Below are positions 11,551 to 12,967 of a stretch of 13,087 nucleotides of DNA, one piece after another (position 1 is the stretch's first letter; each line of letters starts with the position of its first letter). The DNA is from Microcystaceae cyanobacterium (GTDB lineage Bacteria > Cyanobacteriota > Cyanobacteriia > Cyanobacteriales > Microcystaceae). A program made the position numbers and the translations under genes. The stretch spans positions 1-13,087 of the forward strand of contig JBGTGT010000089.1 of the NCBI GenBank assembly GCA_041746575.1, in the 5' to 3' direction. Under the pieces are notes generated by a model. That model was not told the origin of the DNA. It saw only the letters and a list, made by a program, of their open reading frames with translations, and searched no databases.

Positions 11551-12492
11551 GTGACAAAAGTGATTCGGACTAGGCTGGACTATCTACAAGGCACAGCCTT
11601 TGTAGAGACAGTCCACGCCCTAGAAACCGTCTTGAATAATCTTTGTAGTCTAATCGCTATCGGTGACTCTTGGTCATGGAATAACCACCCCATTCATTGC
11701 GGTCAAACCTTTGAAAATTCTTTCAAATCCGTTAGATCAAAAATTTATGGTGGAATTCACAAACTCGATGAAGGTTACAAAATCATCATTCAGTTACCCG
11801 GCCATTACTTTTCACAAATTAATAACTGGAGAACAACAGCACGTTATCTCTCACGCCAAGGCTTAAAAATCACTCGCCTCGATATTGCTCACGATACCAG
11901 TAGCAAATTACCCGCATTCGAGACCGTCAAACAGGCAGGAGAAAACCACCATTTTAAAGGCGTAAATTCTTATAAACTCATAGAAGAAAGCGTCTGTAAA
12001 AATACAGGCCCTATTCCGACTTGCTATTTTGGGAAATCTGATAAAATCATCCGTTATTACGACGCTGATTATATACACGAAAACGGATGTCATCGGTGGG
12101 AACTTCAATTACGAAATAACCACGCTCAAGCAGTCTTCGATGATTTAACCCAAACCAGAAATAAAAACTTATCTGGCTATTTAACAACCGCCATCGATTT
12201 TGGCATCAAAAGAGAACAAAAATTCTACCGCTTTGATTGGTGGACAAAAACCCTAGAGGAACTGGGAGAAGCTGAAGAGATTAATTTGCCTGATTACATC
12301 CCTAGTTTTAAACGAGCAGAAAATTGGTTAATCAGACAAGCCAGCCCAACCCTAGCAGTCGCCAGAGAAGGAATGGGAGAAAAAGCATTCCAACAGTTTA
12401 TTAATAGCCTAACCGTCGAGGGACGGGAGAAATATAAACCCTACCATCAAGCTTGGATCAACGAACTTAAAAAGGAGTATCAAAATGCCTAG
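11551..12492 (+). CDS. Rolling-circle replication initiator, Rep_trans family (pT181 RepC/RstA/NicK-like)
   Basis: N-terminal RLDYLQGT, ITRLDIAHD (R109, D111, D115), TCYFGKSDKIIRYYD (catalytic-position Y159), RWELQLR (E184), and C-terminal WL.RQASPTL. Confidence 0.88.
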   Translation: MTKVIRTRLDYLQGTAFVETVHALETVLNNLCSLIAIGDSWSWNNHPIHCGQTFENSFKSVRSKIYGGIHKLDEGYKIIIQLPGHYFSQINNWRTTARYLSRQGLKITRLDIAHDTSSKLPAFETVKQAGENHHFKGVNSYKLIEESVCKNTGPIPTCYFGKSDKIIRYYDADYIHENGCHRWELQLRNNHAQAVFDDLTQTRNKNLSGYLTTAIDFGIKREQKFYRFDWWTKTLEELGEAEEINLPDYIPSFKRAENWLIRQASPTLAVAREGMGEKAFQQFINSLTVEGREKYKPYHQAWINELKKEYQNA

Positions 12493-12967
12493 TATTATCT
12501 TGTCCGTGGAACATAATCAGTACACAAGACTTTCTGGAGATGAAGTCGACCAAACTATCTTGACTTACTTTGACCCCTCAGAATGGACTGAAAACACAGG
12601 ATATAAAGGATTCACCATCCTTAACTGTGAAGCTCCCAATCTCTCCATAAAAGACTTTGAAACAGTACCAGCCATTTATGAGATGTATTTCAGGCCTCGA
12701 AGAAATTTTAATAAAAATGAAGCTTCTTTAAAAAGTTGCGAACTACAAAAAGCAGCAGTATTTGAGCCTAAAGACCAGCTTTATATCATTTTAGGCATTA
12801 AAAAAGTTAATTACGAAACGAAAGAGAAAGAATTGATAAGAGGAGTTAAATTTTGGGCAATAGATCCCACTGAAAAAATATCAGAATCTAATTTACAAGG
12901 TTACCCCGTGATCGAATCAAGAATTAGTAGCAACTCATCTTTTGACAGTGAACTGTCCCGACGCTGA
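12485..12967 (+). CDS. Putative ssDNA-binding protein with a tandem domain duplication; C-terminus truncated by IS insertion
   Basis: Overlaps the rep stop by 8 nt (ATGCCTAG). Gapless internal repeat at a 97-aa offset. Codons from 12948 onward are IS-derived. SSB function is inferred from position and a beta-rich pattern. Confidence 0.6.
   Translation: MPSIILSVEHNQYTRLSGDEVDQTILTYFDPSEWTENTGYKGFTILNCEAPNLSIKDFETVPAIYEMYFRPRRNFNKNEASLKSCELQKAAVFEPKDQLYIILGIKKVNYETKEKELIRGVKFWAIDPTEKISESNLQGYPVIESRISSNSSFDSELSRR

What the first reader, a model, noticed from the sequence alone, without database searches (positions are those of the whole stretch)
12485..12967. SSB-like gene built from a gapless tandem domain duplication (single-chain pseudo-dimer)
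Seen: residues 4-45 (IILSVEHNQY-16aa-DPSE-8aa-GFTI) align without gaps to residues 101-142 (IILGIKKVNY-16aa-DPTE-8aa-GYPV), a 97-aa offset. Established: filamentous-phage gene V SSBs are ~80-100 aa OB-fold homodimers. Inference: this is a fused double-OB SSB of ~190 aa before IS disruption, an unusual architecture that could serve as a marker for a new element family.
Basis: partly seen in the sequence, partly recalled or inferred. Interest (0 to 1): 0.75.

Follow-up and report, generated by a model that had tools for sequence, protein, structure and literature searches.

The report
Doubled DNA-binding protein of cyanobacterial inoviruses
This is a transposon-broken copy of a gene from filamentous phages of cyanobacteria, in which the small domain that other filamentous phages encode once is present twice in one chain, likely a built-in dimer that coats the phage's single-stranded DNA.

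Summary
The repeat is real, but the window alone barely shows it: 8 of 42 identical residues, shuffle p about 0.01-0.02. Relatives settle it. The gene belongs to an unannotated family of 193-232-aa proteins. A profile built only from ~100-aa single-domain relatives hits twice in 32 of 33 members, and the two halves match each other at HHalign 99.3%.

An intact 201-aa paralog in the same genome folds (pLDDT 94, pTM 0.86) into two copies of an OB-type barrel. Its best viral match is gene V of filamentous phage OH3, which is also a sequence homologue of both halves. All 9 full-length copies found in the host family sit right after a Rep_trans gene, mostly in inovirus-like prophages. The window copy is a remnant: an IS605-family element replaces about 47 C-terminal residues.

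Corrections: the duplication is old and gapped (~20% identity), the protein is ~200 aa, and the element is a known kind (inovirus). DNA binding and two-fold 'pseudo-dimer' geometry are inferred, not shown. New variant of a known kind.

The parts
11551..12492 (+). Rep_trans rolling-circle initiator gene (313 aa); overlaps the next gene's start by 8 nt
   Evidence: PF02486 E 3.3e-15; phrog_453 E 3.5e-9; 31% identical to the Rep of the C66 prophage
12485..12967 (+). Truncated double-domain gene V-type ssDNA-binding protein gene (160 aa; native residues 1-154)
   Evidence: 41% identical to intact 201-aa paralog C66:4005-4610; family of 29 full-length 190-235-aa hits
12485..12760 (+). Domain 1 (residues about 3-92), complete; predicted OB-type barrel
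   Evidence: single-domain profile iE 2.7e-14; model of the paralog
12779..12946 (+). Domain 2 (residues about 99-154), first 55 of about 97 profile positions only; the PGxY strand, last hairpin and last strand are missing
   Evidence: single-domain profile iE 1.4e-11, positions 3-55; alignment
12948..13087 (-). Right end of an IS605-family TnpB-only insertion sequence, cut by the contig end; supplies residues 155-160 and the stop codon
   Evidence: 100% identical to C55:17431-17570 and the C88 end; full copy carries TnpB, PF01385/PF07282/PF12323; junction spanned by run contigs 10761-12976 in X1 and X3

Best explanation
The gene is an IS-truncated copy of a ~200-aa protein of cyanobacterial inovirus-like prophages, made of two tandem copies of a gene V-type domain, which likely works as a single-chain equivalent of the gene V homodimer and coats the phage's single-stranded DNA. 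Shown: the duplication, the family, its fixed place after Rep_trans, homology of both halves to phage OH3 gene V, and the IS junction. Predicted: two OB-type barrels with a defined mutual arrangement. Inferred from Ff gVp: Rep_trans nicks and displaces the plus strand; the protein binds it cooperatively, each cleft formed by the first hairpin of one domain and the last hairpin of the other; this blocks minus-strand synthesis and hands the collapsed circle to the pI assembly machine. The window copy lacks the second half of domain 2 and all downstream phage genes, so it is most likely non-functional.
For: Duplication: single-domain profile hits twice in 32 of 33 family members; N-half versus C-half HHalign 99.3%, E 1.2e-20. 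The search returned two size classes, 29 proteins of 190-235 aa and 45 of 85-140 aa, of 78. Fold: AF2 of the intact paralog with 78 rows gives pLDDT 94.2, pTM 0.86 and the same strand order twice. Best viral match is Thermus phage OH3 'single-strand DNA binding protein' (E 1.9e-4, TM 0.63 by target), with an RstB-like protein at rank 8. PDB lists are dominated by OB-fold ssDNA binders (LEF-3, Rim1, SSB, RPA, PriB; best Z 7.6-8.1). The Atlas model of relative P0006 matches ~100-aa clusters, two of which carry CTX_RstB (12%) or Phage_DNA_bind (23%). Sequence: OH3 gene V scores E 5.8e-8 with the N-half, 3.3e-7 with the C-half and 5.8e-13 with the single-domain profile, while three control proteins do not. 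Context: 9 of 9 full-length copies from the family-wide search have Rep_trans directly upstream, 8 of 9 a coat-like gene downstream, 5 of 9 a pI-like gene downstream. Both halves keep the invariant G, the F-x-x-x-P-G-x-Y motif and an aromatic residue in the first hairpin. gVp's working unit is a homodimer whose clefts need two subunits (PMC9837838, passages).
Against: No binding data exist for this family. OH3 gene V is annotated by gene position only (PMC4763002, passages). M13 gVp and VGJphi ORF112 do not match the profiles significantly; only the PGxY word aligns with gVp. No Pfam, PHROG or NCBIfam SSB model is hit at threshold. PDB Z-scores are in the range that common folds reach by default, and Foldseek gave no PDB match at E <= 0.001. 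I had no coordinates, so two-fold pseudo-symmetry was not measured. The halves are only about 20% identical and differ at conserved positions, and net charge is near zero or slightly negative (-4 to +2). The pI and coat assignments rest on weak PHROG hits (E 4e-6 to 3e-3).
Confidence: 0.62

Rival explanations
1. It is an ssDNA-binding protein with two OB domains, but not a fused gVp-type dimer: the domains lie head to tail along one strand (RPA70-AB-like), or the chain dimerises again to give four OB folds, as Deinococcus-Thermus SSB does.
For: The best Foldseek PDB rows are tandem-OB proteins (RPA, HIN domains, Teb1, Thermus SSB), although with whole-chain rmsd 14-21 A. The halves have diverged to about 20% identity. 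Precedent: PMC4427625 (passages).
Against: None of the solved tandem-OB proteins superposes over both domains (TM by query 0.30 or less; VIA alignments cover residues 1-90 only). Both halves descend from a gene V-position family, and gVp's unit is a dimer.
Confidence: 0.22
2. Only one domain still binds DNA; the other has a new job, such as contacting Rep, the pI assembly ATPase or a host factor, or binding mRNA as a translational repressor.
For: Asymmetric conservation: the C-half keeps G24 (93%), D31 (90%) and an R-G-x-x-G turn (87/74/93%), while the N-half has lost G24 and has a looser G-K turn. N halves group with N halves and C with C, so the roles have been fixed for a long time.
Against: Both halves keep the core motifs, an aromatic residue in the first hairpin and basic residues in the last hairpin, and both match OH3 gene V about equally.
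Confidence: 0.12
3. The repeat is a chance match, or the protein is not a nucleic-acid-binding protein.
For: Single-sequence shuffle p is only 0.01-0.03; no library hit; OB folds have other ligands.
Against: Profile-level repeat E 1.2e-20, two hits in 32 of 33; gene V position and OH3 homology.
Confidence: 0.04

Closest known systems
Thermus phage OH3 gene V product (Paulinoviridae, Thomixvirus; BAS49597.1, 97 aa)
   Same: Sequence homologue of both halves, best viral structure match, same place directly after the replication gene.
   Different: One domain, not two; its SSB label rests on gene position (PMC4763002, passages).
Ff (M13/fd/f1) gene V protein, PF02303
   Same: Same genomic slot; OB-type barrel with long hairpins; PGxY word aligns. 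It is the model for the mechanism (PMC9837838, passages).
   Different: 87-aa homodimer; no significant profile match to this family; PF02303 not hit. Engineered single-chain gVp dimers were reported by Liang, Sandberg and Terwilliger 1993 (recalled; paper not held).
CTXphi RstB family, PF07459
   Same: Atlas clusters with 12-25% PF07459 members are near relative P0006 by features and structure; an RstB-like model is among the viral fold hits.
   Different: Single domain; no Pfam hit here; Atlas scores are under that tool's bar for naming a family.
Deinococcus-Thermus SSB (two OB folds per chain)
   Same: Same evolutionary move: an oligomeric OB-fold SSB with two subunits fused into one chain by a short connector, halves asymmetric (PMC4427625, passages).
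   Different: Cellular SSB family (PF00436), works as a homodimer of double-OB chains; only weak, single-domain structural similarity to this protein.
Candidate family 'Photinoviridae' (Roux et al. 2019, PMC6813254)
   Same: Inoviruses of cyanobacterial hosts, known from genomes (3 cyanobacterial rows in supplement file 4).
   Different: Those 3 rows list none of the paper's four SSB families or its RstB family. I did not test whether the prophages here fall in that family's pI cluster.

Membership tests
Inovirus gene V-type SSB | Gene directly downstream of the rolling-circle initiator, upstream of the coat genes | tested here: met
   Window: 8-nt overlap with Rep_trans. 9 of 9 full-length family copies have Rep upstream, 8 of 9 a coat-like gene downstream (4 of the 9 are loci that supplied, or closely match, sequences in my own profiles).
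Inovirus gene V-type SSB | OB-type beta-barrel | tested here: met
   Predicted only: model pLDDT 94; OB-fold proteins fill the lists, best Z 7.6-8.1.
Inovirus gene V-type SSB | Homology to an annotated gene V product | tested here: met
   OH3 gene V: E 5.8e-8 and 3.3e-7 against the two half profiles (7 sequences searched, Z set to 1).
Ff gVp family (PF02303) | Pfam PF02303 match or significant similarity to M13 gVp | tested here: not met
   No hit in P0001 or in 43 family proteins; M13 gVp E 0.03-0.06.
Ff gVp family (PF02303) | Single ~87-100-aa domain per chain | tested here: not met
   Two domains per chain in 32 of 33.
Ff gVp family (PF02303) | Two-fold dimer built on the dyad loops | not testable with these tools
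   No model coordinates are returned; pTM 0.86 says only that the domains have a defined arrangement.
Inovirus gene V-type SSB | Cooperative, sequence-non-specific ssDNA binding | not testable with these tools
   Needs EMSA or fluorescence titration.
CTX_RstB (PF07459) | Pfam match | tested here: not met
   only leads (one protein, E 0.027).
Deinococcus-Thermus double-OB SSB (PF00436) | PF00436 domains | tested here: not met
   No PF00436 hit.
Inovirus (Tubulavirales) prophage | pI morphogenesis ATPase and major coat gene in the element | tested here: inconclusive
   Present in relatives with weak PHROG support (C66 pI E 1e-4; L010 pI E 3.6e-6, coat E 0.003). Absent from the window's contig, and no second copy in the assembly.
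Candidate 'Photinoviridae' | pI in protein cluster PC_00303 and gene-content clustering | not tested
IS605-family TnpB element (interrupting IS) | TnpB with HTH_OrfB_IS605, OrfB_IS605 and TNB domains | tested here: met
   Full copy on C55. No other long ORF within the ~1.5-kb element.

The most novel reading that the evidence does not exclude
A lineage of cyanobacterial filamentous phages has replaced the gene V homodimer, once and long ago, by a natural single-chain heterodimer whose two halves have specialised, so the two antiparallel DNA strands of the pre-virion are gripped asymmetrically and one half may have gained a partner-binding or regulatory role. It would be the first natural fused gene V that my searches could find, and a marker that exposes cyanobacterial inoviruses missed by standard profiles.
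Probability: 0.4. Interest if true: 0.58.

Novelty: new variant of a known kind. Interest (0 to 1): 0.42.

Why it matters
Filamentous-phage gene V proteins are a textbook obligate homodimer and a protein-engineering model. A natural fused version lets each half be mutated separately and tests how asymmetry arises after subunit fusion, in parallel with Deinococcus SSB. In practice, the double-domain profile and the ~100-aa single-domain profile label a replication gene that Pfam, PHROGs and NCBIfam miss, and they find inovirus-like prophages in 10 of 89 genomes of this cyanobacterial family. It is an architectural variant, not a new mechanism, and the window's own copy is broken.

Tried and rejected
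Word-based protein searches found almost nothing: only the query for P0001, one relative for P0003. A first fold with a 3-row alignment failed (pLDDT 38) and was not used.

A homodimer prediction for the single-domain family (alignment A5, 2 copies) returned no answer: score 0.36 against a mark of 0.42, controls 0.00. It is not evidence either way.

The single-domain profile found no PDB sequence at E up to 10. M13 gVp and Pf3 SSB were not among the rows shown.

No relatives were found in viral contigs, metagenome contigs, plasmids or GenBank phages with a double-domain query. These scans need close matches, so the contexts of most of the 29 full-length proteins are unknown.

The missing 3' part of the gene was sought by tblastn and in the flanks of both IS left ends, C90 and C91: not found. 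No IS-free allele appeared among the loose ends shown for runs X1, X3, X4 (2 rows not shown; three of the five runs may be the source sample).

One weak genome match with four stops (G145) and one 1782-aa hit (P0067) were dropped as spurious. P0064 was left out of the alignments; P0018 and P0062 look like N-half fragments and were kept out of the single-domain profile. The trees are quick trees on 101 columns and cannot fix the number of duplication events. A recent, repeated duplication was rejected because no protein's two halves are sisters in either tree.

Literature searches listed no paper on a double-domain inovirus SSB; I read listings and abstract starts only, and most subscription papers are not searched. 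Earlier scan findings: nothing relevant.

Full report
Observation. The ORF at 12485-12967 encodes 160 aa and overlaps the stop of a 313-aa Rep_trans gene by 8 nt. The best internal ungapped match is at that offset and is reached by 19 of 2000 shuffles (47 of 2000 if the IS-derived tail is removed); a gapped half-against-half test gave 63 of 2000. From the window alone the repeat is suggestive, not proven.

The interruption. The window is the whole of contig C89. From 12947/12948 onward it is identical to the end of C88 and to C55:17431-17570. On C55 this is the right end of a ~1.5-kb element carrying TnpB. Residues 155-160 and the stop are therefore IS-derived; the same ELSRR tail ends a nuclease-like ORF on C88. 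In runs X1 and X3 one contig spans 10761-12976 at depth about 30 and the IS piece has depth 88-100, as expected for three copies; no loose end showed an IS-free allele (these runs may be the source sample). The remaining 3' part was not found in the assembly, nor were second copies of the coat or pI genes. The window element is a remnant, or its rest is unassembled.

The intact form. The same genome has a 201-aa paralog (P0003, C66:4005-4610, 41% identical) whose halves align with a score no shuffle reached (0 of 2000). It lies in an element with the order regulator, Rep_trans, this gene, several small hydrophobic genes, a signal-peptide coat-like gene, and a P-loop ATPase with weak matches to pI/Zot families. 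By this yardstick the window copy has lost about 47 residues. The host is a cyanobacterium, judged from a Psb34 hit in the window and from named relatives carrying the same element, Cyanothece sp. BG0011 and a Crocosphaera MAG.

The family. A profile search of 1.84 billion representatives returned 78 proteins: 29 of 190-235 aa, 45 of 85-140 aa and 4 others. The short ones matched either the first or the second half of the profile. A profile made only from 43 short proteins hit twice (iE < 0.01) in 32 of 33 long-family members, including P0001 (residues 3-92 and 99-152). The N-half and C-half alignments matched each other at HHalign 99.3%, E 1.2e-20. The period is 93-111 residues and the halves are about 20% identical. 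In two quick trees N halves cluster with N halves and C with C (4 changes against 50 shuffled; 7 against 54 with four more rows), which points to one or a few old duplications; support is low. None of 43 family proteins reached a Pfam threshold, and PHROG hits were weak and almost all to unnamed families.

The fold. With 78 rows, AF2 modelled P0003 at pLDDT 94.2 and pTM 0.86, with the same strand pattern in residues 2-89 and 100-189. The top viral match is the Thermus phage OH3 single-strand DNA binding protein (E 1.9e-4); an RstB-like protein is rank 8. PDB searches gave no Foldseek match at E <= 0.001, but the lists are filled with OB-fold ssDNA binders (best Z 7.6 and 8.1, baculovirus LEF-3 and Rim1), aligned to one domain at a time. 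No solved tandem-OB protein superposes over both domains. The Atlas model of relative P0006 (pTM 0.79) matches ~100-aa clusters, two with RstB or Phage_DNA_bind members, all under that tool's naming bar. By sequence, OH3 gene V matches both half profiles (E 5.8e-8, 3.3e-7) and the single-domain profile (5.8e-13); a hypothetical protein of inovirus Dulem virus 51 does too; M13 gVp shares only the PGxY word and VGJphi ORF112 nothing. OH3's label is positional (PMC4763002, passages).

Distribution and context. In the host's family 10 of 89 genomes carry 13 matches: 9 full-length, the window copy, and 3 broken ones. All 9 full-length copies follow Rep_trans; 8 have a coat-like gene downstream; 5 have a pI-like gene downstream, 3 fetched stretches end before one could appear, and 1 has it upstream on the other strand (profiles were built from four of these elements or their close matches, so those hits are not independent). 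Copies from two divergent subclades (G740, G692) have the same context. Wider samples found few: 2 of 401 in the order and 2 real of 401 in the phylum, own genome included. In a class-wide sample, 3 genomes of another family had a single-domain version; in G968 it sits after Rep_trans in an element with coat-like and pI-like genes. So cyanobacterial inovirus-like elements come with either form, in the same slot.

Mechanism. [quoted passage not shown] A chain with two such domains, a linker of about ten residues in the model (residues 90-99) and a confident inter-domain arrangement is most simply a fused dimer doing this job (inference, 0.62). The rivals are a head-to-tail or further dimerising double-OB protein (0.22) and one specialised half (0.12). 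Conservation is partly asymmetric: the C-half keeps G24, D31 and R-G-x-x-G like the single-domain proteins, the N-half less so, while both keep the invariant G and F-x-x-x-P-G-x-Y. Geometry and binding could not be tested.

Known or new. Cyanobacterial inoviruses are catalogued (PMC6813254; I read passages, section 9 and rows of supplement files 4 and 6). Its three cyanobacterial 'Photinoviridae' rows list no SSB family. Fusion of SSB subunits has precedent in Deinococcus-Thermus SSB (PMC4427625, passages) and, from recall, in engineered gVp. Seven literature searches listed no natural double-domain inovirus SSB; the paper's supplementary notes were searched only for a few terms.

Noticed in passing
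G000:C66:82-8825 (L001): Apparently complete inovirus-like prophage: regulator, Rep_trans, double-domain SSB, small membrane genes, coat-like gene, pI-like ATPase, followed by a pilin-like gene (PF07963) and preceded by a divergent IS110-type transposase (NF051857 score 175.9, cut-off 180).
   Followed up: partly
G000:C90:31000-33348 (L012): Contig end with an IS110-type transposase (NF051857, above cut-off), a small gene and the 5' part of the prophage-type regulator, cut by the IS left end; 81 bp are identical to C66:1837-1917. It may be the other arm of the window's prophage. Both prophage left ends in this genome lie beside an IS110-type gene, which could be a domesticated integrase; no such gene was evident in the 4 kb upstream in G196.
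   Followed up: partly
window 10670-10828 (-): Psb34-like (ssl1498 family) gene copy that matches only profile positions 1-21 of 53 and then changes frame; copies with open frames lie on C8 and C9.
   Followed up: partly
L032:1480-2085, L033:1363-1968, L036:1483-1842: Decayed prophage copies in three other genomes; two share an in-frame deletion that fuses an early part of Rep to the SSB from the middle of domain 1.
   Followed up: partly
alignment A5 (P0029-P0081), L016:7048-7329: A family of ~100-aa gene V-type proteins with no Pfam model, which includes OH3 gene V and a hypothetical protein of Dulem virus 51; a candidate new profile for inovirus SSBs.
   Followed up: partly
G000:C88:12544-13776: A second copy of the same IS ends an SbcD-like nuclease ORF (name recalled from its motifs) with the same ELSRR tail.
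   Followed up: no
window 6881-7168 (+): DUF29 gene covering only positions 1-93 of the 138-position profile, probably truncated.
   Followed up: no
window 11123-11335 (+): 70-aa ORF with a signal-peptide-like start just upstream of Rep; weak WGxxGxxG-family hit (E 0.037). No prophage regulator was found upstream of the window's Rep.
   Followed up: partly
PHROG phrog_929: Labelled 'RstB sensor of two protein system' but weakly hit over its whole length by single-domain SSB-like P0068; probably the CTXphi RstB family under a wrong name.
   Followed up: no
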